DNA of 64,000 nucleotides from Planctomycetaceae bacterium (GTDB lineage Bacteria > Planctomycetota > Planctomycetia > Planctomycetales > Planctomycetaceae): assembly GCA_003508595.1 (NCBI GenBank), contig DNUF01000128.1, positions 21,069 to 85,068 on the forward strand, written 5' to 3'. How positions within the stretch are numbered: position 1 is the stretch's first letter; every line of letters begins with the position of its first letter. Both the position numbers and the translations under genes were made by a program. Shown here in pieces: positions 3,905 to 64,000 of this stretch. The notes under the pieces were generated by a model. It was not told where the DNA came from, did no database searches, and was given only the letters and a program-made list of their open reading frames with translations.

Positions 3905-5779
3905 CTACTCACAGACGAGAGGGGGAGTGGAGACCTCAATCGTTTCCTCGTCAGCGGCCTCATCCACAGCCACGAATGCCCGGCGGGATTCGCGAAGGTC
4001 ATCATCCGAGTTGACAGAACCGACCCTCGACCGCTCGAGCAGGTGATAACGATCGTCGGCCAGCAAGACTTCACAATCTTCTTCACTCTGCTGCTCGGTA
4101 TCCATCATGTCGAAGACCGAGACGCGGTTGAATCCGAAGACATGCATCTCTTCCCCCCGAATCACCAGGGCGGTCGATTCGTCGAGGCCCAACCCCAGCA
4201 ACTGGGGATGCAACCGCTTGAGGTGAGCCATGTCACCCCTGCGATTCCGTTGTGAAAAATAGGGGTCGACAGCCGTTCCGGGAAGCAACCCCAATCCATC
4301 TTCATATCCCTCTCCGATCACATGCCGATTGGAGACCGGATTGCCACGGACCAGGTAACTGGCCAGGACCGAGGCACCGGCGGCAGAACCGCCGATCGCC
4401 CCATCCCGCCGCAGAAGATCCCGCAACTGCTGGTGGACCAGTGTGTCTTCGAGGGCATCCATCACCCGCCACTGACGGCCACCGGTGAACCAGACCCCCC
4501 CCGCCTGCTCAAACATCTCAGCGACCTGAGGATCATTCGCCTGCTGCCGGTCCGCGAGGTGCAGGCAGAGTGTATTGGTGGCACCGGCCTCCTTGAGGAA
4601 ACGGACTGTTTCCTCGCTGTCTGGAGGCGCATCTCCCGAAGCGGTCGTGATGACAATGATCAAACCCTGCGGACCACCAGAATGTTCGATGAATCGTTCG
4701 ACGGCATCCCGGGGAATCTCACCTCCCCCGGCAAGAACCACCGTCCCCTGGGGAAGACCCTTTTCATGCACAGGATTGGGGTCGGGCAACCGTGGATTCA
4801 GACGACGACTGGCCGATCGGGCCAGGGCCAGAAGGTCCACCTCATCCCCCGGTTGCAGCAATTCGGTCCGGGGAGATTTCTCACCGGTCCCGGCCAGGCA
4901 AGTCATGACCTGGGAATCGGATTCATCGAGAACCACCATCTTCCGCCCCTGAACGACCAGAGTCGTTCCCTCATCAATGCCCAGTCCCACGAGCTCGGGG
5001 AAGTTGCTGAGGGCATTCAGCAGCCGATCCTGACGATGCCTTTTCAGAAAGTGCTGATCCACGACCGTACCCGGCAGGAACCCAAACCCGCGATCGAGTT
5101 CGGGCTCGGGATTGCCTCCCTTGATCATCACTTGCGACATGATGGCCGCACCGGCGGAGGTACCACCAATCACTCCGCCTCGTTCGAGAACCTTCCACAA
5201 CTGCCGCTCAAAGCGGGTGTCGAGGTAGGCTTCAGTGAGGCGCGATTGATGACCACCGATAAACCAGACGGCGGTGGCGTTTTCCAGGGGGAGGCAGAAC
5301 GCCTCGGAGTCGGCTACGTCACGCTCACGGGTATGCAGGAAACACAAGTCCTGGAGCTTCAGATTTCGGAAGGGTGCGATCCGGGGTTCGACCTCGGGGG
5401 TGTCGGCCGTTTCGCTGGCGGTGGTCACAACGACCAGACGGCAGCGATCTCCACCACCAAAATCGACAAAACGCTCCAGAGACGCTTCCGACAGCCGACC
5501 CCCTCCCGAGATGAACAAAGTTCCCGTCACCGGGCGGGCAGGATCCGCCTGAAGGGTCGAGCGTCCCGAAGCAATCGCCGCAACCGCCGGTTTGGATCCG
5601 GCTGGATTCGCACCGATCACATTCGATCGGGGAACATTCGATTGAGCCAGCAATACTCCCGGTACCACCGGCAGGTAAACCAGGGTCCACATGAGGGACC
5701 TCCAGATACTCTGGGTGAAACCCCGTCCCGTGGGGTGTGGCAGGCTTCCTTGCCTGTACAGCAGTTTGTGTGACGTCAT
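3905..5779 (-). CDS. secreted protein with two tandem cyanophycinase-like peptidase S51 domains
   Basis: Two repeats of the S51 pattern: GGG...(V/I)TTAS...WF(I/T)GG...GG(T/S)(S/A)AGA. Domain 1 has GVIGGTSAGAAI and domain 2 has GAIGGSAAGASV. The N-terminus is hydrophobic and signal-like (MWTLVYLPVVPGVLLAQS). The start is ambiguous between ATG 5779 and ATG 5692. Confidence 0.75.
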   Translation of the reverse strand: MTSHKLLYRQGSLPHPTGRGFTQSIWRSLMWTLVYLPVVPGVLLAQSNVPRSNVIGANPAGSKPAVAAIASGRSTLQADPARPVTGTLFISGGGRLSEASLERFVDFGGGDRCRLVVVTTASETADTPEVEPRIAPFRNLKLQDLCFLHTRERDVADSEAFCLPLENATAVWFIGGHQSRLTEAYLDTRFERQLWKVLERGGVIGGTSAGAAIMSQVMIKGGNPEPELDRGFGFLPGTVVDQHFLKRHRQDRLLNALSNFPELVGLGIDEGTTLVVQGRKMVVLDESDSQVMTCLAGTGEKSPRTELLQPGDEVDLLALARSASRRLNPRLPDPNPVHEKGLPQGTVVLAGGGEIPRDAVERFIEHSGGPQGLIIVITTASGDAPPDSEETVRFLKEAGATNTLCLHLADRQQANDPQVAEMFEQAGGVWFTGGRQWRVMDALEDTLVHQQLRDLLRRDGAIGGSAAGASVLASYLVRGNPVSNRHVIGEGYEDGLGLLPGTAVDPYFSQRNRRGDMAHLKRLHPQLLGLGLDESTALVIRGEEMHVFGFNRVSVFDMMDTEQQSEEDCEVLLADDRYHLLERSRVGSVNSDDDLRESRRAFVAVDEAADEETIEVSTPPLVCE

Positions 5780-38113: not shown

Positions 38114-39613
38114 ATGCGTTGGCTCTCATGCCTGTTCGTGGCCGGTCTGATGGCCGGGAACTGTCTCTCCCTTCTGTTCGCCGCCGACACCCCGGCCGGT
38201 CCCGTCGCCATCGGTTCCCGCCGCGAGTTGTTTGTGGATGACTTCCTCATCGAACGGCTGAGGAATGTTCGACTGGAACTGCAGCATCCCGTGCCGCAGG
38301 ACATCAGCTTCGCCTGCGATCAGCCGTGGGAAGGAAACACCTGCATCTACTTCCGGATCATCCCCGAGTCGGGGAAGTACCGCATGTGGTACCAGGGAGC
38401 CCACTGGCAACTCGACCCGGCCGAGCCCCCGACGCATCCCTACCACATCTGCTATGCCGAGAGCACCGATGGCATCACCTGGACCAAGCCAAACCTCGGG
38501 CTCATCGAGGTCAACGGTTCCACGCAGAACAACATCGTCGTCACCGGGATCTACGACAACTTCACCCCCTTCCGCGATGAGAATCCGAACTGTGCCCCCG
38601 AAGCCCGCTACAAGGCCCTGGGTCAATCGCGCGACGGCTTGATTGCCTGGCAGTCGCCCGATGGACTGCGCTGGACCCGGCTGGGAGATCAGCCGGTGAT
38701 CAGGCAGGGAGCCTTCGATTCACAAAACGTCGGTTTCTGGGACACGCATGAGAACCGCTACCGGGCCTACGTCCGCGATTTTCACGACGGCCAACGCGAC
38801 ATTCGTATCGCCTATTCCGATGACTTCCTTTCCTGGACCACCCCGAAACGGCTCACACTCACCCCCGAGGTGCCGCGCGAGCAGTACTACACCAACTGCA
38901 TTGATCGCTATCACCGCGCCCCGCACCTGTTCCTCGGCTTTCCCGTCCGCTACGTCGAGCGGAAATGGTCCCCCTCTATGCGGGCCCTGCCCGATCTCGC
39001 CCATCGCGAATTGAGAGCGAAGAAGGAAGAGCGGATTGGGACCGCCATCACCGATGGGGTCTTCATGTCAAGCCGCGATGGCGAGAACTTCCACCGCTGG
39101 AACGAAGCCTTCCTGCGGATCGGGCCCGAACGTCCCGGCTCGTGGGTCTATGGAGACTGCTACCCCGCGCACGGCCTGGTCGAAACCCCCAGCAAGCTCC
39201 CCGGTGCCCCGAACGAACTGTCGTTCTATGTCGCCGAACAGTACTGGCGCACGGCCGAAACGATCCGTCGCTGGACACTGCGGGTCGATGGCTTTGTCGC
39301 CGCGAAGGCCCCCTTCGAAGGGGGGGAACTGCTGACCAAGCCGTTCACCTTCACCGGACAGCGTCTCTCATTGAACTTCGCCACTTCGGCGGCAGGCAAC
39401 CTGTTTGTGGAGCTGACCGATTCCGAGGGAGAGCCGCTCGCCGGGTACTCGCTCGACGATTGCGACGAGACCTTCGGAGACAGTCTCGACCGCACGATCA
39501 GTTGGCGGGGAAAGACCGACACGTCGGCCCTAGTCGGCCAGACCGTTCGGCTGCGATTCCTGCTGCGGGATGCCGAGTTGTACTCGTTTCAGTTCACCGA
39601 TCCGAACCCGTAG
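38114..39613 (+). CDS. secreted beta-propeller glycoside-hydrolase-like protein (uncharacterised family), paralog A
   Basis: Start at ATG 38114 (MRWLSCLFVAGLMAG). Contains RRELFVDDFLIE, PWEGN, YRMWYQG, YAESTDGITWTKP and a C-terminal beta-sandwich-like LSLNFATSAAG...RLRF. By eye it is roughly 40-50 percent identical to the 40497..42038 gene. The function is inferred only from fold-like motifs. Confidence 0.6.
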   Translation: MRWLSCLFVAGLMAGNCLSLLFAADTPAGPVAIGSRRELFVDDFLIERLRNVRLELQHPVPQDISFACDQPWEGNTCIYFRIIPESGKYRMWYQGAHWQLDPAEPPTHPYHICYAESTDGITWTKPNLGLIEVNGSTQNNIVVTGIYDNFTPFRDENPNCAPEARYKALGQSRDGLIAWQSPDGLRWTRLGDQPVIRQGAFDSQNVGFWDTHENRYRAYVRDFHDGQRDIRIAYSDDFLSWTTPKRLTLTPEVPREQYYTNCIDRYHRAPHLFLGFPVRYVERKWSPSMRALPDLAHRELRAKKEERIGTAITDGVFMSSRDGENFHRWNEAFLRIGPERPGSWVYGDCYPAHGLVETPSKLPGAPNELSFYVAEQYWRTAETIRRWTLRVDGFVAAKAPFEGGELLTKPFTFTGQRLSLNFATSAAGNLFVELTDSEGEPLAGYSLDDCDETFGDSLDRTISWRGKTDTSALVGQTVRLRFLLRDAELYSFQFTDPNP

Positions 39614-40496: not shown

Positions 40497-42038
40497 ATGC
40501 TGACTCGCCTGTGTCTCGCATTCGCGGTTTTGGTCTTGAGTCTGCCGTCGTCAATCGGCGCGGCCGAACCTTTGGCCCTTGGCGGTCGGCGGGAACTGTT
40601 TGTCGACACGTCGCTGCTGGAACCTCTCGAAGGGCGCGCACAACTGCGGTTGCACCACCCCACCCCGCGCGAGGTCGCCCTCACACTGAATGAGCCCTGG
40701 GAGGGAAATTCCAGCGGCTACGCGACGGTGATCCAGGAGGGCCATCGCTACCGGATGTACTACCGGGGCCACCGCTACCTGCTGGATCCCCCTCCGCTGC
40801 GACAGGCGCAGTCGGAGGTGGTCTGCTATGCCGAAAGTGACGACGGCATTCACTGGAAAAAACCGGCGCTCGGGCTTTTCGACTGGCCTCCCACGCAGAA
40901 CAACACCGGCCACAAGCAGAACAACATCGTCTGGCGCGGGGGGGCCGAGACCCACAACTTCGCCCCGTTTCTCGACACCAATCCCCAGGCCCGGCCCGAT
41001 GAGAAATTCAAGGCCGTGGGAGGAACCACCAGCAGCAAGGGTCTGCTGACATTTGCATCCGGCGATGGGCTTCATTGGCGGCAGTTGAGCGAGACCCCGG
41101 TGGTCACCCAGGGTGCGTTCGACTCGCACAACACCGTCTTCTGGGATCCAACCCACCAGCGCTACACGATGTTCACTCGGTTTTTCAGCGAAGAGAACTT
41201 CAAGGGTCTCCGTTCCATCGGGGTGTCGTTCTCGACCGACTTCCGCACCTGGTCGACACCGGTCGGGCTGACCTATCCGAACTCGCCACCCCAGCAGATG
41301 TATACGAACCAGATTGCACCGTACTACCGTGCTCCTCACATCCTGTTGGGATTTCCCACCCGATTCGTCGCCCGGCCGCTGTCCCGACAGGCCCAGTCTC
41401 TTGAACCGGTCCAAACCCGCAAACTGTTTTATGAATCGATCAGGGAGAGTGGTGCCTACACCGGGGCCGAGGTGACCGACGGCTGTTTCATGAGCAGCCG
41501 TGACGGGCAGGCGTTCCACCGCTGGGATGAAGCGTTCCTCCGGCCCGGACGCGAAGGGGAGGGACGCTGGATCTACGGCGACAACTACCAGAGCTATGGC
41601 CTGTTTGAGACCAGGGCCGAGGGTCCCGGCCTGCCCAACGAGATTTCGCTGCACTTCAACGAGGGGGCCTGGCGCGATGAGATGCATCGGCTGCGGCGAT
41701 ACACCATTCGGCTTGATGGATTTGTATCGCTCAACGCCCCCTTCTCTGGCGGCACTGCGACCACCGTCCCGGTCACCTTCACGGGGGACCGCTTGTCCCT
41801 CAACTTCGCCACCTCGGCGGCGGGCTCGGTGCGTGTGGCCCTGCTCGATGCCGGGGGAAAACCACTACCGGGCTTCGACCTCACCGACTGCGACGAACTT
41901 TTCGGCGACACGGTTGATCGGACGGTCACGTGGCATGACGCGGCCGATCTCTCAGCCCTGGCAGGTCGCCCCATTCGCCTCAGTTTCGCCCTGCAGGACG
42001 CCGACCTGTTTTCCTTCCAATTCGTGTCCGCCCAGTGA
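40497..42038 (+). CDS. secreted beta-propeller glycoside-hydrolase-like protein (uncharacterised family), paralog B
   Basis: Start at ATG 40497 (MLTRLCLAFAVLVLSL). It has the same motif order as paralog A (RRELFVDTSLLE, PWEGN, YRMYYRG, YAESDDGIHWKKP, LSLNFATSAAG, RLSF). Confidence 0.6.
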   Translation: MLTRLCLAFAVLVLSLPSSIGAAEPLALGGRRELFVDTSLLEPLEGRAQLRLHHPTPREVALTLNEPWEGNSSGYATVIQEGHRYRMYYRGHRYLLDPPPLRQAQSEVVCYAESDDGIHWKKPALGLFDWPPTQNNTGHKQNNIVWRGGAETHNFAPFLDTNPQARPDEKFKAVGGTTSSKGLLTFASGDGLHWRQLSETPVVTQGAFDSHNTVFWDPTHQRYTMFTRFFSEENFKGLRSIGVSFSTDFRTWSTPVGLTYPNSPPQQMYTNQIAPYYRAPHILLGFPTRFVARPLSRQAQSLEPVQTRKLFYESIRESGAYTGAEVTDGCFMSSRDGQAFHRWDEAFLRPGREGEGRWIYGDNYQSYGLFETRAEGPGLPNEISLHFNEGAWRDEMHRLRRYTIRLDGFVSLNAPFSGGTATTVPVTFTGDRLSLNFATSAAGSVRVALLDAGGKPLPGFDLTDCDELFGDTVDRTVTWHDAADLSALAGRPIRLSFALQDADLFSFQFVSAQ

Positions 42039-58455: not shown

Positions 58456-59223
58456 TCACGGCTGCGGCGATCGGCCGGTGTCGGTTTCATCGGCCGGCTG
58501 TGCGCCCGAGCCCGGTTTTTTGGCCGTCAAAGGGGACTCGACCGGTTGCGAAACCTCGACCACCAATTCGACTCCCCGGTCATCCTCAGGCTCGTAAGCA
58601 AGCCCGTACTTCGCCGGGTCAAACCAGAACCGGGCCATCAAGACCAGACCCCGCGCCCCATCAAACAGCTCGATTCGTGCCGGAAAAGACAACTGCCGCG
58701 TTTCCCCCCGCAGCGTGAGATCACCCCGAATTCGATGATTCTCGAAATCACGCAACTCACCCGATTCGAGACTGTTGAAGGCGGGAGCCACGTTGTTCGC
58801 GAAAAAGCCAATCAGCCGAAAATGCTCCACATCGAGTCCATCCCGGGATTTCAGTTGCTCGACCAGTTCGGCAGCCTTCGATTCGAGAGAGTCCGAATCA
58901 ATTTCCAGGTCGATTCGCTTCACCGAGATCCGGTTGTCGGTCAGGGTGACGATTCCATGAAACTGTCGAAACTCGGCCCAGACCTTCTCTCCGTCTTCAT
59001 TCGTCAGCATCACGCCGATCCGGGTGTTCGCCGGCGTCAGCCTGGCAATCCCCTCGTCGACCGTGATCGGGCGCATCTGGTCGGGAGTCAACAACGTCGC
59101 CCCCACCACCTCAGGCGGAGAGGCCTTCGGACCAGGCACCGGCGTGGGGGTGCAACCGACTCCCCAGACCAATCCGGCGAGCAAGACCCAAACCCAATCG
59201 CTGTGCTGCATCCTCTTGGACAT
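58456..59223 (-). CDS. YceI-like lipoprotein
   Basis: Lipobox-like LVWGVGC after a short signal. The C-terminal part (FHGIVTL...IDLEIDSDSLESK...IRGDLTLRGETRQLSFPARI) matches the YceI family. I used the ATG at 59221-59223. Confidence 0.7.
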   Translation of the reverse strand: MSKRMQHSDWVWVLLAGLVWGVGCTPTPVPGPKASPPEVVGATLLTPDQMRPITVDEGIARLTPANTRIGVMLTNEDGEKVWAEFRQFHGIVTLTDNRISVKRIDLEIDSDSLESKAAELVEQLKSRDGLDVEHFRLIGFFANNVAPAFNSLESGELRDFENHRIRGDLTLRGETRQLSFPARIELFDGARGLVLMARFWFDPAKYGLAYEPEDDRGVELVVEVSQPVESPLTAKKPGSGAQPADETDTGRSPQP

Positions 59224-59536
59224 CGTTCTGGCGTTCACTCGAGTTTCTCACCGTCCCCCCTGCGGCTTCCATCCCCCCTCGGGCACGACACAACCCCAGC
59301 CAGCCAGGCGGGATATCACACCAGGTCCCCAACCGTGTATTTCCGTCACCGCAGACACTCTCACCATAACCCCGGTTCGCACACGAGTGATAGTGCGAAA
59401 CGGCAAAAACTCGGCGATCTCCGGCAGGTGCCGTCGGCACCATCCTGCCAATCGAAAACCTCCTTGCACCTCCGCCCCACTCTGTGGAGAATTCTTTCCA
59501 CTGGACTCTCCCCTGGAAACGGAAGCGGCGGCACAC

Positions 59537-61513
59537 GTGACGGATCGACTGGCGGAACTCAACCCCTCGCAACGCGAGGCGGTCACCACTCTCTCGGGCC
59601 CCCTGCTCGTTTTGGCGGGGGCCGGTTCGGGCAAGACCCGCGTCATCACCTATCGGATGGCCGAGTTGATCCGCAGCGGCATCCAGCCCTCCCGCATTCT
59701 GTCGGTCACCTTCACCAACAAAGCGGCCCGCGAGATGCAGGAACGGGCCAGCAAGCTGCTGGGCAAGTCCCGCGGCGAACGCCCCCTGGTCGCCACCTTC
59801 CACAGCCTCTGCGTCCGCATTCTGCGTGAAGAAATCGCCGCGCTCGGCTACCCCACCAGTTTCACGATCTACGACCGGGGTGACCAGGAATCGACGGCCC
59901 GCACCGCCCTGCGCGACATTCGCGTCTCCGAGAAATCGATGAAGCCGGGCGACCTGCTGGCGATGATCAGCAAGTGGAAGGGGGCCGGGATCTCTCCCGA
60001 GCAGGCCCGCGATGCCGTCGATGGCGATCTCGAAGCCCTCGCCGCCGCCGGCTACCGCCGTTATCAGCAGGGAATGAAAGCCGCGGGAGCCGTCGACTTC
60101 GATGACCTGCTCTACCTCACCGACCGCCTCTTCACCACCTCTCCCGAGCTGCTCGCCCGGCACCAGCAACGGTTCGACACCGTCCAGATCGACGAGTACC
60201 AAGACACCAACGGTCTGCAGTTCCGCCTCATCGAGGCACTCGTCCGCCCGCATCACAACATCTGCGTCGTGGGGGATGACGACCAGGCGATCTATGGGTG
60301 GCGCGGGGCCGAAGTCCGGCACATTCTGTCTTTTCCCCAGCACTTCCCGAACACGAAGGTGATTCGCCTGGTCGACAATTACCGCTCGACCGCGCAGATT
60401 CTGTCGCTGGCCAACCAGTTGGTCACGCACAACCGCAACCGGCACGCCAAGCAGTTGCAGGCGCACAAGGACGGCCCGCTGAGCGTGAAGATCAAGGAGC
60501 ATCCCGACGAAGGGACCGAGGCGCTCGATGTGGTCCGCGAGATTTCATTTCTGATCAGGCAGAAGGGGGTCGCGCCGGGAGACATTGCGATTCTCTTCCG
60601 CACCAACGATCAGCCCCGCGCGTTCGAGACCGAGCTGCGTCGGGCCCAGGTGCCGTATGTGCTGCTGGGCAGCCAGTCGTTCTTCGACCGGCGCGAGATT
60701 CGCGACCTGCTGGCCTACATGCGGGTCTGCAGCCGGCCGGAAGACGAAATCCCCCTGCTGCGGATCATCAACGTCCCCCCCCGGGGAATCGGCGCCACCA
60801 CGATCGAGAAACTCGTGGGCCGGGCGCAGAAGACGGCACAGCGACTCTGGAACACCATGCCCCCGGCACTGCAGGCGGGAGAGCTGGGCCAGGCAGCCGG
60901 GAACGCCATCTCGGGGTTCCGCACCCTCATCGAGAAGTACCGCCGGCAGTTTGCCGAGAATCCCCGGGCGCTCAGCACGACGCTCGAAAAGCTCATCGAC
61001 GAGATTGGCTACCATGGCGAGATCGAGAAGCAGTACGAGCAGGCGACGCAGCAAGAACTGCGGAGGACGATGCTGGGGGAACTGGTGACGGCGGTGCGGC
61101 AGTACGAATCGCGTGCGACGCACCCGACGCTGCACGGCTTTTTGCAGGAGACCTCACTGGGGGGTCGGGAAGACGAGCCCGACAAGGACGACAAGCTGCA
61201 GGCCGAGGGGGTCAAGCTGATGACCCTGCACAGTGCGAAGGGGCTGGAGTTTCCGCGGGTCTACCTGGTGGGGATGGAAGAGGGGCTGTTGCCGCACAAG
61301 CGGTCGACCAGCGAACTGGCGGGGGACGTCGACGAAGAGCGCCGGCTCTGCTACGTGGGGGTCACGCGCGCCCGCGAGTTCCTCACAATCTCGCGTGCGC
61401 AAACCCGCATGAAATGGGGCAAACCGCGCGTCTGCCAACCCTCGCGCTTCCTCTTCGAAATGCAGGGCCTGCCAGTCCCGCCTCAGGTTTTGATGGGTGA
61501 TGACCGCAGGTAG
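59537..61513 (+). CDS. ATP-dependent DNA helicase, UvrD/PcrA/Rep family
   Basis: LNPSQREAV, LAGAGSGKT (Walker A), TFTNKAA, DEYQDTN, GDDDQAIYGWRGA, YRS, TLHSAKGLEF and YVGVTRAR appear in canonical order. I chose GTG 59537 as the start because no ATG lies between the YceI-like gene and motif Q. Confidence 0.85.
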   Translation: MTDRLAELNPSQREAVTTLSGPLLVLAGAGSGKTRVITYRMAELIRSGIQPSRILSVTFTNKAAREMQERASKLLGKSRGERPLVATFHSLCVRILREEIAALGYPTSFTIYDRGDQESTARTALRDIRVSEKSMKPGDLLAMISKWKGAGISPEQARDAVDGDLEALAAAGYRRYQQGMKAAGAVDFDDLLYLTDRLFTTSPELLARHQQRFDTVQIDEYQDTNGLQFRLIEALVRPHHNICVVGDDDQAIYGWRGAEVRHILSFPQHFPNTKVIRLVDNYRSTAQILSLANQLVTHNRNRHAKQLQAHKDGPLSVKIKEHPDEGTEALDVVREISFLIRQKGVAPGDIAILFRTNDQPRAFETELRRAQVPYVLLGSQSFFDRREIRDLLAYMRVCSRPEDEIPLLRIINVPPRGIGATTIEKLVGRAQKTAQRLWNTMPPALQAGELGQAAGNAISGFRTLIEKYRRQFAENPRALSTTLEKLIDEIGYHGEIEKQYEQATQQELRRTMLGELVTAVRQYESRATHPTLHGFLQETSLGGREDEPDKDDKLQAEGVKLMTLHSAKGLEFPRVYLVGMEEGLLPHKRSTSELAGDVDEERRLCYVGVTRAREFLTISRAQTRMKWGKPRVCQPSRFLFEMQGLPVPPQVLMGDDRR

Positions 61514-61568
61514 GGTCTCTGTCCCGTAGATGCCAAACTGCGCATTCACCATCCCCGGCACCGGACCC

Positions 61569-62650
61569 CAATGTGCCCTCGCCCGAGGAGACCTACCTCG
61601 TGGGACCAAACTCAGGACGACGGGAGCGCGAACCTCTGTGTTCGCCCCCCGCTGGGGTTTCACTGGCAGATAACGGTCTTTGGGAAGCCAGACATCTTTG
61701 CCGGCACTAACGGTCGATGTGACACCGTGCGATCCGTTTTTGTCGCGGCGAACGCGGCTGTTGGCCGGGGTTTTTGGACAAACTCACACGGCGAACTGGT
61801 TTGACTCACAGGCTAAAAGCCTGTTCCACGACGAGAGAGCCTGCTCCACAATGCGGCCGAAAACCTCAGACCTGAATCGGAAACCAATGTGCCCTCGCCC
61901 AAGCAGACCGTCCTCGTGGGACCAAACACAGGACGACGGGAGCGCGAACCTCTGTGTTCGCCCCCCGCTGGGCGGTCGCTGGCAGATAACGGTCTTTGGG
62001 AAGCCAGACATCGTTGCCGGCACCTACCGTCGATGTGACACCGTGCGATCCGTTTTTGTCGCGGTAAACGCGGCCGTTGGCCGGGATTTTCGGACAAACT
62101 CACACGGCGAGCGGTTTTGACTCACAGGCTAAAAGCCTGTTCCACGACAAGAGAGCCTGCTCCACGGTGCGGCCGAAAACTGAGACCTGAATCGGAAACC
62201 AATGTGCCCTCGCCCGAGCAGACCGCCCCCATGGGACCAAACACAGGACGACGGGAGCGCGAACCTCTGTGTTCGCCACCCGCTGGGGTTTCACTGGCAG
62301 ATAACGGTCTTTGGGAGGCTGCACCTCGTTGCCGGTGCAACTGGTCGATGAGACAAGCTGCGATTCATTCGAGCCGTGTTTGTGGCGGTAAACGCGGCCG
62401 TTGGCCGGGGTTTGGGACAAACTCACACGGCGGGCGGGTTTGACTCACAGGCTAAAAGCCTGTTCCACGATTCGGGAAGCTGGACATCGTTGCCGGCACC
62501 CACCGTCGATAAATACCGTGCGATCCGTTCGAGCCGTTTTTGTCGCGAAGAACGCGGCCGTCGGCCGGGGTTTTGGGACAAACTCACACGGCGGGCGGGT
62601 TTGACTCACAGGCTGAAAGCCTGTTCCACGACACGAGAGCCTGTTCCACC
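61569..62650. repeat. tandem array of a ~315 bp non-coding composite unit (3 full copies plus 1 partial)
   Basis: Units start at 61569, 61885 and 62200 (periods 316 and 315 bp). A partial fourth copy at 62471-62650 contains only the second half of the unit. Copies 1 and 2 differ at roughly one position in twelve by my manual alignment. Every copy keeps the hairpins GCGAAC-CTCTGT-GTTCGC and ACAGGCT-AAA-AGCCTGT. Confidence 0.9.
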
Positions 62651-62654
62651 AAAG

Positions 62655-62689
62655 GACGTGGCGACACACCGCAAGGTGGCCGCCACGTC
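62655..62689. terminator. hairpin between the repeat array and the Dabb gene (possible bidirectional terminator)
   Basis: 9 bp arms GACGTGGCG (62655-62663) / CGCCACGTC (62681-62689). Pyrimidine/T-rich TTCGTTCTCC follows on the plus strand. It lies 40 nt downstream of the Dabb stop on the minus strand. Confidence 0.4.
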
Positions 62690-62728
62690 TTCGTTCTCCT
62701 CTCTCCTCTCACCCGACTCCTCTCTGCG

Positions 62729-63040
62729 TCACCCCACTTCCGAATCGAAGACCCGCACCTGCTTCCAGCCGGGCTTCGATTCGGTGATGAACTGCTGGTG
62801 CCGGGGGTGCGCCTGGTAGGCGTCGTGCGACGCCATCGAGTCGAAGACCACGTGCAGGGCGACGTCGAACGCCCGGTCATTCACCGGGCGGGCCAGCGAG
62901 GGACACAACACCCCCGCGCTGTAATACACCACCCCGTCATGCCCCTTCAGGTACTTGTCACACGCCGCCACCTGGCGCTGGCAAGACTCGGGTGAGTTGT
63001 CGTTCAGAGCGAAAAAGACGTTGTGAACCACGTGAGGCAT
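62729..63040 (-). CDS. Dabb (stress-responsive alpha/beta barrel) family protein
   Basis: 103 aa from ATG 63038-63040. MPHVVHNVFFAL...GHDGVVYYSAG...FDVALHVVFDSMASHDAYQAHPRHQQF matches the Dabb domain pattern. Confidence 0.75.
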   Translation of the reverse strand: MPHVVHNVFFALNDNSPESCQRQVAACDKYLKGHDGVVYYSAGVLCPSLARPVNDRAFDVALHVVFDSMASHDAYQAHPRHQQFITESKPGWKQVRVFDSEVG

Positions 63041-63194: not shown

Positions 63195-64000
63195 TTAACG
63201 GTTCCAGTCGATCTGTTCAAACAACGCGAGCAATTTCGCCCCGCGCTGGCTGTTCAGGCTGGTGACAAACGCAATCCGGCCCCGCAGGTGACTGGCAAAC
63301 TCGGGATGTCGCTCGCGATTCTGCGACGTCGGACCGTACTGGATGCAGTTCTTGAGCGTCGCCTTGAGCCGGTCGTAGTCCTCCCGGCGAATGTTCAATT
63401 TCGAATTCACCACCACCCCGGTCACCCGCTGCCGTTGCGACGCCCGCTGCACAGCGGTCTTTCGCGAGTTCAGCCGAAACTGTTCCTGCGCCACAATCTG
63501 CCGGACCAGGGGGAGAAAAACGGCGAGACTGCGCTGGAAGACCTCGCCGCCCGAAAAGGTCAGATCGTCGGCATACCGCGTGTACTGGGCGTTGAAGCTG
63601 CGGGCCAGCCCCGCCAGGCGCAGGTCGAGCACAAACGCCGAGAGGTTGGCCAGTGCGGGTGACGTGGGAGCTCCCTGGGGCAGATGTCGCCGCAGATAGC
63701 GGGTTTCGGCAACGTCGCTGGGACGCCCCGCCTCCCAGAGATTCGGGGGAACGGCCGTGGTCACCAGCCGGGCGAGCCAGATCGCCGCCTCACGCGAGTA
63801 GCCCAGGCTGCGGAAGATCGCCGTCACCCGGGGATAGGTCACGCTCGGATAAAAATTCTCCAGGTCGAGCTTCAGCAACACCCGCTGGCCAACATGCGGC
63901 TGGGCATTCGTCTGGATCGAACGCCCCGTGACAAATCCGTGGGCGGCGACATGGGGAGGAATGCGACCGAGAATCTCGGCCAGAATCTGCTGCTGCACCC
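63195..64000 (-). CDS. retron-type reverse transcriptase (N-terminus outside window)
   Basis: The ORF is open to the window edge. Motifs in order: NAQPH (NAxxH), LKLDLENFYPSV, RHLPQGAPTSPALANL, YTRYADDLTFSG (YADD box) and SQRQRVTGVVVN (VTG motif). TAA stop at 63195-63197. No maturase or endonuclease tail. Confidence 0.8.
   Translation of the reverse strand, partial: VQQQILAEILGRIPPHVAAHGFVTGRSIQTNAQPHVGQRVLLKLDLENFYPSVTYPRVTAIFRSLGYSREAAIWLARLVTTAVPPNLWEAGRPSDVAETRYLRRHLPQGAPTSPALANLSAFVLDLRLAGLARSFNAQYTRYADDLTFSGGEVFQRSLAVFLPLVRQIVAQEQFRLNSRKTAVQRASQRQRVTGVVVNSKLNIRREDYDRLKATLKNCIQYGPTSQNRERHPEFASHLRGRIAFVTSLNSQRGAKLLALFEQIDWNR

What the first reader, a model, noticed from the sequence alone, without database searches (positions are those of the whole stretch)
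61569..62650. 1.1 kb tandem array of a ~315 bp structured non-coding unit next to the RT locus
Three full units start at 61569, 61885 and 62200 (periods 316 and 315 bp). A partial fourth unit at 62471-62650 repeats only the second half, so the layout is [B A][B A][B A][A]. Copies 1 and 2 are about nine-tenths identical by my hand alignment, and copy 3 is more diverged in the middle of its A part. Copies 3 and 4 carry a 9 nt segment (TCGAGCCGT) that copies 1 and 2 lack. No reading frame is conserved. The 77-codon ORF starting at the unit-initial ATG accumulates mostly amino-acid-changing differences between copies 1 and 2 and is cut by a TGA in copy 3. By contrast, two hairpins are identical wherever the corresponding half of the unit is present: GCGAAC-CTCTGT-GTTCGC (first at 61628-61645, copies 1-3) and ACAGGCT-AAA-AGCCTGT (first at 61808-61824; the loop reads GAA in the partial fourth copy). 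The array fills most of an otherwise empty 1.2 kb gap between the helicase stop and the Dabb/RT genes. It could be a BIME-like cluster of REP-type palindromes, a tandem set of small structured RNAs, or a by-product or substrate of the neighbouring RT. The RT link is speculation with a low prior.
Basis: seen in the sequence. Interest (0 to 1): 0.65.

Follow-up and report, generated by a model that had tools for sequence, protein, structure and literature searches.

The report
Strain-variable intergenic tandem repeat array
This is a real but ordinary non-coding tandem repeat (about 315 bp units) between two convergent genes of an uncultured planctomycete; it varies in copy number between strains, is absent from the closest relatives, and has no detectable connection to the neighbouring reverse transcriptase.

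Summary
The array is real: TRF finds 2.8 copies of a 316-bp unit at 61568-62470, followed by a partial copy at 62471-62650. It is non-coding. It is unique in the 64-kb window and has no match in Rfam, plasmids, phages or 5.8 billion protein clusters.

Independent assemblies of the same species carry 1.6, 3.6 and probably 5.6 units, with mosaic units that show inter-unit recombination.

Relatives whose RT is 80-85% identical keep the RT-Dabb-helicase gene order (shown for two of them) and show no trace of the array; in one the gap is 75 bp. The RT is retron-type and has its own conserved, strongly folding ncRNA directly upstream, outside the window. The RT link is therefore rejected.

The unit shows no covariation and no excess folding energy. 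It diverges between strains about as fast as third codon positions in the flanking genes.

One hairpin (ACAGGCT-AAA-AGCCTGT plus CCAC) is a copy of a GTGG/GTAG-tagged, REP-like palindrome that also occurs in Acidobacteriota, Binataceae and Phycisphaerales. It is not dispersed here. The other hairpin shares its stem with the terminator hairpin of a relative.

Best reading: a VNTR-like macrosatellite built from 3'-end hairpin modules. It is resized by unequal recombination and is probably near-neutral. Interest is low.

The parts
61569..61884 (.). Unit 1 (316 nt): B segment, A segment and tail
   Evidence: It is 92% identical to unit 2.
61885..62199 (.). Unit 2 (315 nt)
   Evidence: The last 80 nt, followed by units 3 and 4, are reproduced exactly in the independent contig L006.
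62200..62470 (.). Unit 3 (271 nt, lacks the tail). Its centre is diverged and it carries a 9-nt insertion.
   Evidence: This is the unit joined directly to the helicase flank in the short haplotype (L001, L005).
62471..62650 (.). Unit 4, partial (A segment plus the start of the tail)
   Evidence: (families D2 and D3).
61628..61645 (.). B hairpin GCGAAC-CTCTGT-GTTCGC. It recurs at 61944 and 62259.
   Evidence: It lies inside the longest invariant run of the unit (34 nt; 46 of 5000 permutations reach this). As RNA it folds better on the minus strand (-22.1 kcal/mol, z -2.7) than on the plus strand (z -0.1). It shares the stem CGCGAAC/GTTCGC with the only hairpin in the 75-bp Dabb-helicase gap of relative L011.
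61805..61829 (+). A hairpin: a REP-like palindrome, ACT-CACAGGCT-AAA-AGCCTGTT-CCAC. It recurs at 62121, 62444 and 62605.
   Evidence: Exact 24-base matches occur in Binataceae, Bryobacteraceae and Phycisphaerales genomes, against about 0.004 expected by chance (my own estimate). It also occurs in a viral-labelled contig.
62653..62691 (.). Strong stem-loop between the array and the Dabb stop codon. It is a likely bidirectional terminator and is not part of the repeat.
   Evidence: -26.6 kcal/mol (z -3.9) on the + strand and -30.8 kcal/mol (z -4.0) on the - strand.
61514..61568 (.). Unique spacer between the helicase stop codon and the first unit
   Evidence: It is identical in the window, L001 and L005. 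Its similarity to the unit tail is not significant (195 of 1000 shuffles score as well).

Best explanation
The array is a lineage-specific, non-coding macrosatellite (a VNTR-like tandem duplication). It sits in the intergenic region between two convergent transcription units: the UvrD-type helicase on the + strand and the retron-RT/Dabb operon on the - strand.

An intergenic segment of about 315 bp was duplicated head to tail. That segment carried a terminator-type hairpin (B) and a REP-like palindrome (A). Since then the array has been expanded, contracted and homogenised by unequal homologous recombination, replication slippage and gene conversion between units.

The hairpins most likely act, if at all, as REP and terminator hairpins do at the 3' ends of convergent genes: they stop or pause read-through transcription and protect mRNA 3' ends.

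**Shown:** the copy-number variation, the recombinant (mosaic) units, the absence from relatives, the lack of coding potential, and between-strain divergence within the range of third-codon positions.

**Inferred:** the mechanism of expansion and any terminator or stabiliser role.
For: **The array is real**
- TRF, alignment and independent contigs agree.

**Copy number differs between strains**
- L001 and L005 come from independent assemblies. Both join the helicase flank directly to a u3-type unit, giving 1.6 units and a 585-bp gap.
- The window has 3.6 units.
- L007 has at least 4.4 units. Together with L018 from the same sample, that strain probably has 5.6.
- The flank-to-unit-1 and unit-2-to-unit-3 junctions share only about 16-19 nt. 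A k-mer assembly collapse is therefore unlikely.

**Units are mosaic**
- L004_u3 has a u2-type 5' end, and L018_a has a u3-type 5' end.

**The array is absent from the closest relatives**
- Where both flanks are seen (L010, L011), the order saccharopine dehydrogenase / RT / Dabb / helicase is kept.
- L011 has a 75-bp gap. L010 and L012 have a further gene after Dabb (a methyltransferase in L010). The 145-nt tail of L017 has no significant match.
- Neither blastn with word size 7 nor an nhmmer profile finds any trace of the unit.

**No homologue elsewhere**
- Rfam, plasmids, phages, viral contigs, the metagenome architecture scan and 5.8 billion protein clusters give nothing.

**Non-coding**
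-.

**No RNA-structure signal**
-.

**Divergence looks neutral**
- Between strains, u3 + u4 + flanks diverge by 1.7-1.9%.
- Third codon positions diverge by 3.3-4.8% in the helicase, 1.5-1.9% in the RT and 0-1% in Dabb.

**The setting fits**
- The region lies between convergent genes and is plastic in this clade (a methyltransferase gene is inserted in L010).
- The REP literature reports a preferred location of such palindromes between convergent and unidirectional ORFs (PMC3733652).
Against: - Variable sites are not spread evenly. A 34-nt invariant run covers the B hairpin, and the block around the A hairpin is also invariant (46 and 76 of 5000 permutations reach the observed values). This could reflect selection on those modules, not only gene-conversion tracts.
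- The origin of most of the unit sequence is unknown. Only the two hairpins have recognisable relatives.
- No expression data were available, so a transcribed function cannot be excluded.
- Copy numbers come from short-read metagenome assemblies, and several contigs break inside the array.
Confidence: 0.62

Rival explanations
1. The array is a tandem set of small-RNA genes, analogous to NsiR1 in Nostoc or LhrC1-5 in Listeria. Each unit would be its own transcription unit. The invariant blocks would be the promoter and terminator, and the hypervariable centre would be a diversified target-recognition region.
For: - The hairpin-bearing blocks are invariant while the centre (unit positions ~118-190) is highly variable. 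This clustering is non-random.
- The B hairpin forms a 13-bp stem on the minus strand (z -2.7).
- The minus strand of every A hairpin reads GGAAC-N17-GTCAAA, which resembles ECF-sigma promoters.
- A weak GC hairpin followed by a T-run occurs on the + strand of unit 1.
Against: - There is no sigma-70-like promoter.
- The generic ECF-like pattern occurs 6 times elsewhere in the window against 3.9 expected. The unit's match is one post-hoc occurrence copied four times.
- There is no covariation and no excess folding energy.
- There is no Rfam hit.
- The array is absent from all relatives, and some strains carry only 1.6 units.
- Between-strain divergence looks neutral.
Confidence: 0.15
2. The array is a BIME-like or REPIN-like cluster. 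It would be made and maintained by a REP-associated tyrosine transposase (RAYT) acting on the palindromes.
For: - The A hairpin matches a GTGG/GTAG-tagged palindrome present in several phyla. In Phycisphaerales (L016) three exact copies lie in both orientations within about 110 bp.
- REPs are defined by a GTAG tag and a stem-loop (PMC3733652).
Against: - In this genome the palindrome occurs only inside the array. There are 0 copies elsewhere in 64 kb plus the 10 kb of flank in L001.
- All copies are in direct orientation and 161-316 bp apart. They are carried passively by a much longer repeat.
- The stem carries a mismatch relative to the consensus.
- No RAYT gene was looked for or seen nearby.
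Confidence: 0.1
3. The array is a template, product or other functional partner of the neighbouring retron-type RT.
For: - It lies within about 550 bp of the RT's 3' end, with only Dabb between them.
- The helicase scores against a PADLOC 'RT-associated helicase' model.
Against: - The RT has its own ncRNA directly upstream. It is closed by a 14-nt inverted repeat, is conserved in relatives with compensatory pairs, and folds with z -4.8.
- The array is absent from relatives whose RT is 80-85% identical, and from distant members of the RT family.
- There is no sequence similarity between the unit and the ncRNA.
- The differences between copies are not adenine-specific (A fraction 0.22, equal to base composition).
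- A strong terminator-like hairpin separates the RT/Dabb operon from the array.
- The helicase scores slightly higher against a generic GajB/UvrD-helicase model.
Confidence: 0.03
4. The array is an assembly artefact: a single-copy sequence was mis-assembled into tandem copies.
For: Several short-read contigs end inside the array, and copy number differs between assemblies.
Against: - The copies differ by 8-17% and by indels, so they are distinct sequences.
- The junctions u2-u3-u4 and flank-u1-u2 are reproduced in independent assemblies from different samples and pipelines.
- Even the shortest haplotype has the A-A duplication.
Confidence: 0.03

Closest known systems
Bacterial VNTR or minisatellite loci (for example MIRU-VNTR of Mycobacterium tuberculosis). 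This comparison is from my own knowledge.
   Same: It is an intergenic, non-coding, head-to-tail repeat. Copy number differs between strains of one species, and the locus evolves by unequal recombination or slippage.
   Different: The unit is much longer (315 bp against roughly 40-100 bp). It is known from a single locus and is not an interspersed family.
REP / BIME / REPIN elements (GTAG-tagged palindromes; PMC3733652)
   Same: One module of the unit is a 19-27-nt stem-loop with a GTGG tag (GTAG in another genome). It is sequence-conserved across genomes and lies between convergent genes.
   Different: It is not dispersed in this genome. The copies are in direct orientation and far apart, inside a long repeat. 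No RAYT association is shown. A BIME's alternating orientation and short linkers are absent.
Tandem sRNA gene arrays (NsiR1 in Nostoc, LhrC1-5 in Listeria, PrrF1/2 in Pseudomonas). This comparison is from my own knowledge.
   Same: Direct tandem units of similar sequence, each containing stable hairpins.
   Different: There is no promoter, no conserved structure, no conservation in relatives and no expression evidence.
Retron msr/msd ncRNA
   Same: It is next to a retron-clade RT.
   Different: It is on the wrong side of the RT. It has no a1/a2 closing inverted repeat. The genuine candidate ncRNA sits directly upstream of the RT, outside the window. The array is absent where the RT is conserved.

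Membership tests
REP (GTAG superfamily) / BIME | Short (20-40 bp) imperfect palindrome forming a stem-loop | tested here: met
   CACAGGCT-AAA-AGCCTGTT: a 7-bp stem and a 3-nt loop.
REP (GTAG superfamily) / BIME | GTAG tetranucleotide at one end (PMC3733652) | tested here: inconclusive
   The array copies and those in L014-L016 and L023 read GTGG on the reverse strand, one base away from GTAG. The L020 copies read GTAG.
REP (GTAG superfamily) / BIME | High copy number, dispersed through the genome | tested here: not met
   It occurs only inside the array in the 64-kb window and the L001 flank. The rest of the genome was not available.
REP (GTAG superfamily) / BIME | BIME architecture: REPs in alternating orientation with short linkers | tested here: not met
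   All four copies are in the same orientation, 316, 323 and 161 bp apart.
REP (GTAG superfamily) / BIME | Associated RAYT (IS200/IS605-type tyrosine transposase) | not tested
   No scan of the window's ORFs for this family was run. The whole genome was not available.
Retron ncRNA (msr/msd) | Located next to, usually upstream of, the RT and closed by inverted repeats a1/a2 | tested here: not met
   The array lies downstream of RT-Dabb, beyond a terminator-like hairpin, and has no closing inverted repeat. A separate element with a perfect 14-nt inverted repeat lies upstream of the RT in L001.
Retron ncRNA (msr/msd) | Co-conserved with its RT in relatives | tested here: not met
   It is absent from L010, L011, L012, L017, L021 and L022.
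DGR template/variable repeat | Differences between repeats concentrated at template adenines | tested here: not met
   The median fraction of mismatches at A (or at T) is 0.22, equal to base composition. The best ordered pair reaches 0.47. The RT is retron-type, not DGR-type.
Structured ncRNA / sRNA gene | Conserved secondary structure supported by covariation or excess stability | tested here: not met
   Covariation terms are +2.06 and -0.41 kcal/mol, with one compensatory pair per strand. MFE z-scores are -1.64 and -1.05. Power is limited because only 6 closely related sequences were available.
Structured ncRNA / sRNA gene | Own promoter and terminator; discrete transcript | not testable with these tools
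   There are no sigma-70-like sites. The ECF-like match is not above chance. No RNA-seq data were available.
VNTR-type tandem repeat | Head-to-tail non-coding repeat with copy number polymorphic among strains | tested here: met
   1.6, 3.6, at least 4.4 and probably 5.6 units in independent assemblies, with mosaic units.

The most novel reading that the evidence does not exclude
Each unit is an sRNA gene, probably on the minus strand. An ECF-type promoter would overlap the REP-like palindrome, the 13-bp B hairpin would be the terminator, and the hypervariable ~70-nt centre would diversify target recognition. The array would then be a rapidly evolving, strain-variable battery of regulatory or anti-phage RNAs next to a retron.
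Probability: 0.08. Interest if true: 0.55.

Novelty: new member of a known kind. Interest (0 to 1): 0.2.

Why it matters
It matters little in itself. It is one more polymorphic intergenic tandem repeat, which could be useful as a strain marker for this freshwater planctomycete, and it is a caution that repeats next to an RT are not necessarily RT-related.

Two by-products are more interesting:
- A 23-27-nt GTGG/GTAG-tagged palindrome with a conserved loop recurs in at least four phylum-level lineages.
- A retron-type RT family with a conserved upstream ncRNA is widespread across Planctomycetaceae, and its gene neighbourhood is conserved among close relatives (RT 80-85% identical).

Tried and rejected
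- **Rfam.** Gathering thresholds on the whole window and permissive E-values on the region gave only chance-level hits.
- **Coding hypothesis.** Six-frame translation of all variants shows no frame open throughout, with frameshifting indels. Pfam finds nothing on the array ORFs. A 238-aa ORF called inside the array in L007 has no relative among 5.8 billion protein clusters.
- **RT link.** Rejected by comparative context and by the RT's own ncRNA.
- **DGR-type mutagenesis.** Rejected.
- **Internal duplication of the unit (B half against A half).** Not significant.
- **Homology of the helicase-side flank to the unit tail.** Not significant.
- **Similarity of L017's tail to the B segment (TGTGTTTCGCCCCCC).** Too short to count.
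- **L020 as a distant homologue.** Rejected. It is a fold-back contig that carries only the palindrome.
- **ECF-promoter reading.** Not above chance.
- **Plasmid and phage similarity.** None.
- **Literature search for the palindrome sequence.** Only irrelevant primer hits.
- **tRNA or tmRNA.** None in the window.

Full report
**1. Observation**

Tandem Repeats Finder reports 61568-62470, period 316, 2.8 copies, 88% matches and score 1381. It is the only large tandem repeat in the 64-kb window.

A MAFFT alignment (A1) and the repeat finder (families D1-D3) confirm units starting at 61569, 61885 and 62200. They also confirm a partial fourth copy at 62471-62650 that corresponds to unit positions of about 111-290.

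One correction is needed. Unit 3 is 271 nt and lacks the ~45-nt tail. The layout is therefore [B A tail][B A tail][B A][A + part of tail].

Other details hold:
- Units 1 and 2 are 92% identical, and unit 3 is 83% identical to them.
- The 9-nt indel is present in units 3 and 4.
- The two invariant hairpins and the truncated 77-codon ORF are all as described.
- The flanks are a UvrD-type helicase ending at 61513 (+), a Dabb-domain gene at 62729-63040 (-), and a retron-clade RT from 63195 running off the window end (-). The full 430-aa RT scores best against PADLOC RT_other (448 bits), RT_outgroup (427) and RT_XIII (362).

**2. Non-coding and not detectably structured**

- Six-frame translation of all distinct unit variants shows no frame that stays open. 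Single-base indels between copies shift the frame.
- Pfam finds nothing on the array ORFs.
- A 238-aa ORF that a gene caller placed inside the array of another assembly has no relative among 5.8 billion protein clusters.
- Rfam gives no hit at gathering thresholds and only chance-level hits at E up to 10.
- A whole unit does not fold better than dinucleotide shuffles (z -1.64 on the + strand, -1.05 on the - strand).
- RNAalifold on six distinct units gives covariation terms of +2.06 and -0.41 kcal/mol, with one compensatory pair on each strand. Power is limited because all sequences are close paralogues.

**3. Population and comparative context**

The exact Dabb protein occurs on at least 23 contigs (listed in 31 blocks of the collection) from several sources.

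In these same-species contigs the array differs in length:
- L001 (a 235-kb contig) and L005 come from independent assemblies. Both join the helicase flank directly to a u3-type unit, giving 1.6 units and a 585-bp gap.
- The window has 3.6 units.
- L007 has at least 4.4 units. L018 comes from the same sample and begins in the array on the helicase side. Its second unit matches the partial first unit of L007 at 99.3%, which implies about 5.6 units in that strain.

The flank-to-unit and unit-to-unit junctions share only about 16-19 nt. A k-mer collapse is therefore an unlikely cause of the short form.

Units are mosaics. L004_u3 has a u2-type 5' end and L018_a has a u3-type 5' end. This is direct evidence of exchange between units.

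The next closest relatives have an RT 80-85% identical. Where both flanks are available (L010, L011), they keep the order saccharopine dehydrogenase / RT / Dabb / helicase. None shows the array:
- L011 has a 75-bp Dabb-helicase gap.
- L010 and L012 have another gene after Dabb, a methyltransferase in L010.
- L017's 145 nt after Dabb show no significant match.
- Neither blastn with word size 7 nor an nhmmer profile of the unit finds any trace.

More distant members of the RT family (Symmachiella dynata and a 250-kb MAG contig) have different downstream neighbours and no tandem repeats.

A scan of JGI metagenome contigs for the two hairpins at the right spacing returned only this species' array, plus a fold-back contig that shares just the palindrome.

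Plasmid, phage and viral collections give nothing for the unit.

**4. The RT has its own RNA**

Directly upstream of the RT start, outside the window (L001:8325-8510), lies an element closed by a perfect 14-nt inverted repeat (GGCCAGCGGGCCGC / GCGGCCCGCTGGCC).
- It is nearly invariant in relatives whose RT is only 80-85% identical.
- It contains a stem with several compensatory changes.
- It folds at -99.5 kcal/mol against -76.9 for shuffles (z -4.8).

This is the canonical retron msr/msd layout (from my own knowledge of retrons), although Rfam does not recognise it.

The array has no similarity to this element. The differences between array copies are not adenine-biased (0.22, equal to base composition).

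A strong stem-loop at 62653-62691 (z about -4 on both strands) separates the RT/Dabb operon from the array. The RT link is therefore rejected on present evidence.

**5. What the two hairpins are**

*The A hairpin.* A 24-base pattern around the A hairpin has exact matches in three genomes of other lineages: Candidatus Binataceae, Bryobacteraceae and Phycisphaerales. I estimate about 0.004 chance hits in 596 Gb.
- The shared element is oriented and conserved even in its loop: 5'-(ACT)CACAGGCT-RAA-AGCCTGTG-CCAC-3'.
- In Phycisphaerales three exact copies lie in both orientations within about 110 bp of one intergenic region, next to a tRNA-Trp gene.
- Further copies occur in a soil contig (L020, where the tag reads GTAG) and in a viral-labelled contig.
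- The profile search shows that the similarity is confined to about 27 nt.
- Read on the other strand, the element is a GTGG/GTAG-tagged stem-loop. That is the defining form of REP elements (PMC3733652).
- In this genome, however, it occurs only inside the array, always in direct orientation, and with one stem mismatch.
- So the unit carries a REP-like palindrome, but the array is not a BIME.

*The B hairpin.* The B hairpin (GCGAAC/GTTCGC) has the same stem as the only hairpin in L011's 75-bp gap (CGCGAAC-CGGAC-GTTCGCG), and L017's hairpin also contains CTCGCGAAC. I infer, with moderate confidence, that B descends from the ancestral terminator between the convergent genes.

**6. Constraint**

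Variable sites are clustered. The longest invariant run is 34 nt over the B hairpin (46 of 5000 permutations reach it), and bin variance is reached by 76 of 5000 permutations. This is compatible with selection on the hairpin modules or with gene-conversion tracts.

Between strains, the orthologous part of the array (flanks + u3 + u4) differs by 1.7-1.9%. That is within the range of third-codon-position divergence in the neighbours (helicase 3.3-4.8%, RT 1.5-1.9%, Dabb 0-1%). There is no sign of purifying selection beyond neutrality, though the counts are small.

**7. Explanation and rivals**

*Best reading (about 0.6).* The array is a VNTR-like macrosatellite. It was created by tandem duplication of an intergenic segment carrying 3'-end hairpins. 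It is resized and homogenised by unequal recombination, slippage and gene conversion. It is near-neutral, with at most a terminator or mRNA-stabiliser role.

*Rivals.*
- Tandem sRNA genes (about 0.15). The invariant-ends and variable-centre pattern and a 13-bp minus-strand stem fit. However, the sigma-70 promoter scan found nothing, and the ECF-like motif GGAAC-N17-GTC is not above chance.
- A RAYT-driven REP/BIME cluster (about 0.1).
- An RT partner (about 0.03).
- An assembly artefact (about 0.03).

**8. Verdict**

This is a new instance of a known kind of feature and is of low interest. The cross-phylum palindrome and the conserved planctomycete retron-type RT with its upstream RNA are the more noteworthy by-products.

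Noticed in passing
window 61805-61829 and its repeats; L014:1770-1795, L015:1334-1359, L016:1073-1180, L020:419-437 and 5117-5135, L023:5108-5130: A 23-27-nt oriented palindrome, (ACT)CACAGGCT-RAA-AGCCTGTG-CCAC, which reads GTGG/GTAG-tagged on the other strand. It recurs with a conserved loop in DNA of Planctomycetota, Acidobacteriota, Binataceae and a viral-labelled contig, in intergenic DNA where this was checked. It looks like a REP family shared across phyla. Its copy number per genome and any RAYT partner are unknown.
   Followed up: partly
L001:8325-8510 (just beyond the window's right end, upstream of the RT that begins at window 63195-64000, minus strand): A candidate retron msr/msd element. 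It is closed by a perfect 14-nt inverted repeat, folds with z -4.8, and is almost invariant in relatives whose RT is only 80-85% identical, with compensatory pairs in one stem. Rfam does not recognise it.
   Followed up: partly
window 63195-64000 (-) and loci L010, L011, L021, L022: The 430-aa retron-clade RT (PADLOC RT_other / RT_outgroup) has thousands of homologues. It is found at 55-60% identity in Symmachiella, Maioricimonas and Gimesia. It always has a long upstream intergenic region, while its downstream neighbours vary. In the close relatives it sits in a conserved housekeeping-like neighbourhood and not in an obvious defence island.
   Followed up: partly
window 62653-62691: A strong stem-loop (about -27 to -31 kcal/mol, z about -4 on both strands) between the array and the Dabb stop codon. 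It is a likely bidirectional terminator. Its sequence differs from the hairpin at the equivalent place in relatives L011 and L017.
   Followed up: yes
L010:5871-6893 and L012:4081-4209: In two relatives a further gene lies after Dabb; in L010 it is a methyltransferase that occupies the Dabb-helicase interval where this species has the array. This intergenic site is a hot spot for insertion and rearrangement in the clade.
   Followed up: no
window 59024-61513 (+): The UvrD-type helicase scores almost equally against PADLOC GajB (384 bits) and the 'RTasHel' DRT-associated helicase model (364 bits). It neighbours the RT only in the close relatives, so the association is probably fortuitous. The ORF as listed has an N-terminal extension of about 120 aa compared with the 706-aa gene call in L001.
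   Followed up: partly
L020:1-5547: This metagenome contig is an almost perfect fold-back, with inverted-repeat arms covering the whole contig. It is most likely an assembly artefact.
   Followed up: yes
window 38448-38539 and 40822-40931: Two stretches about 2.37 kb apart share 61-nt and 28-nt direct repeats at 71-82% identity. They are probably adjacent paralogous genes.
   Followed up: no
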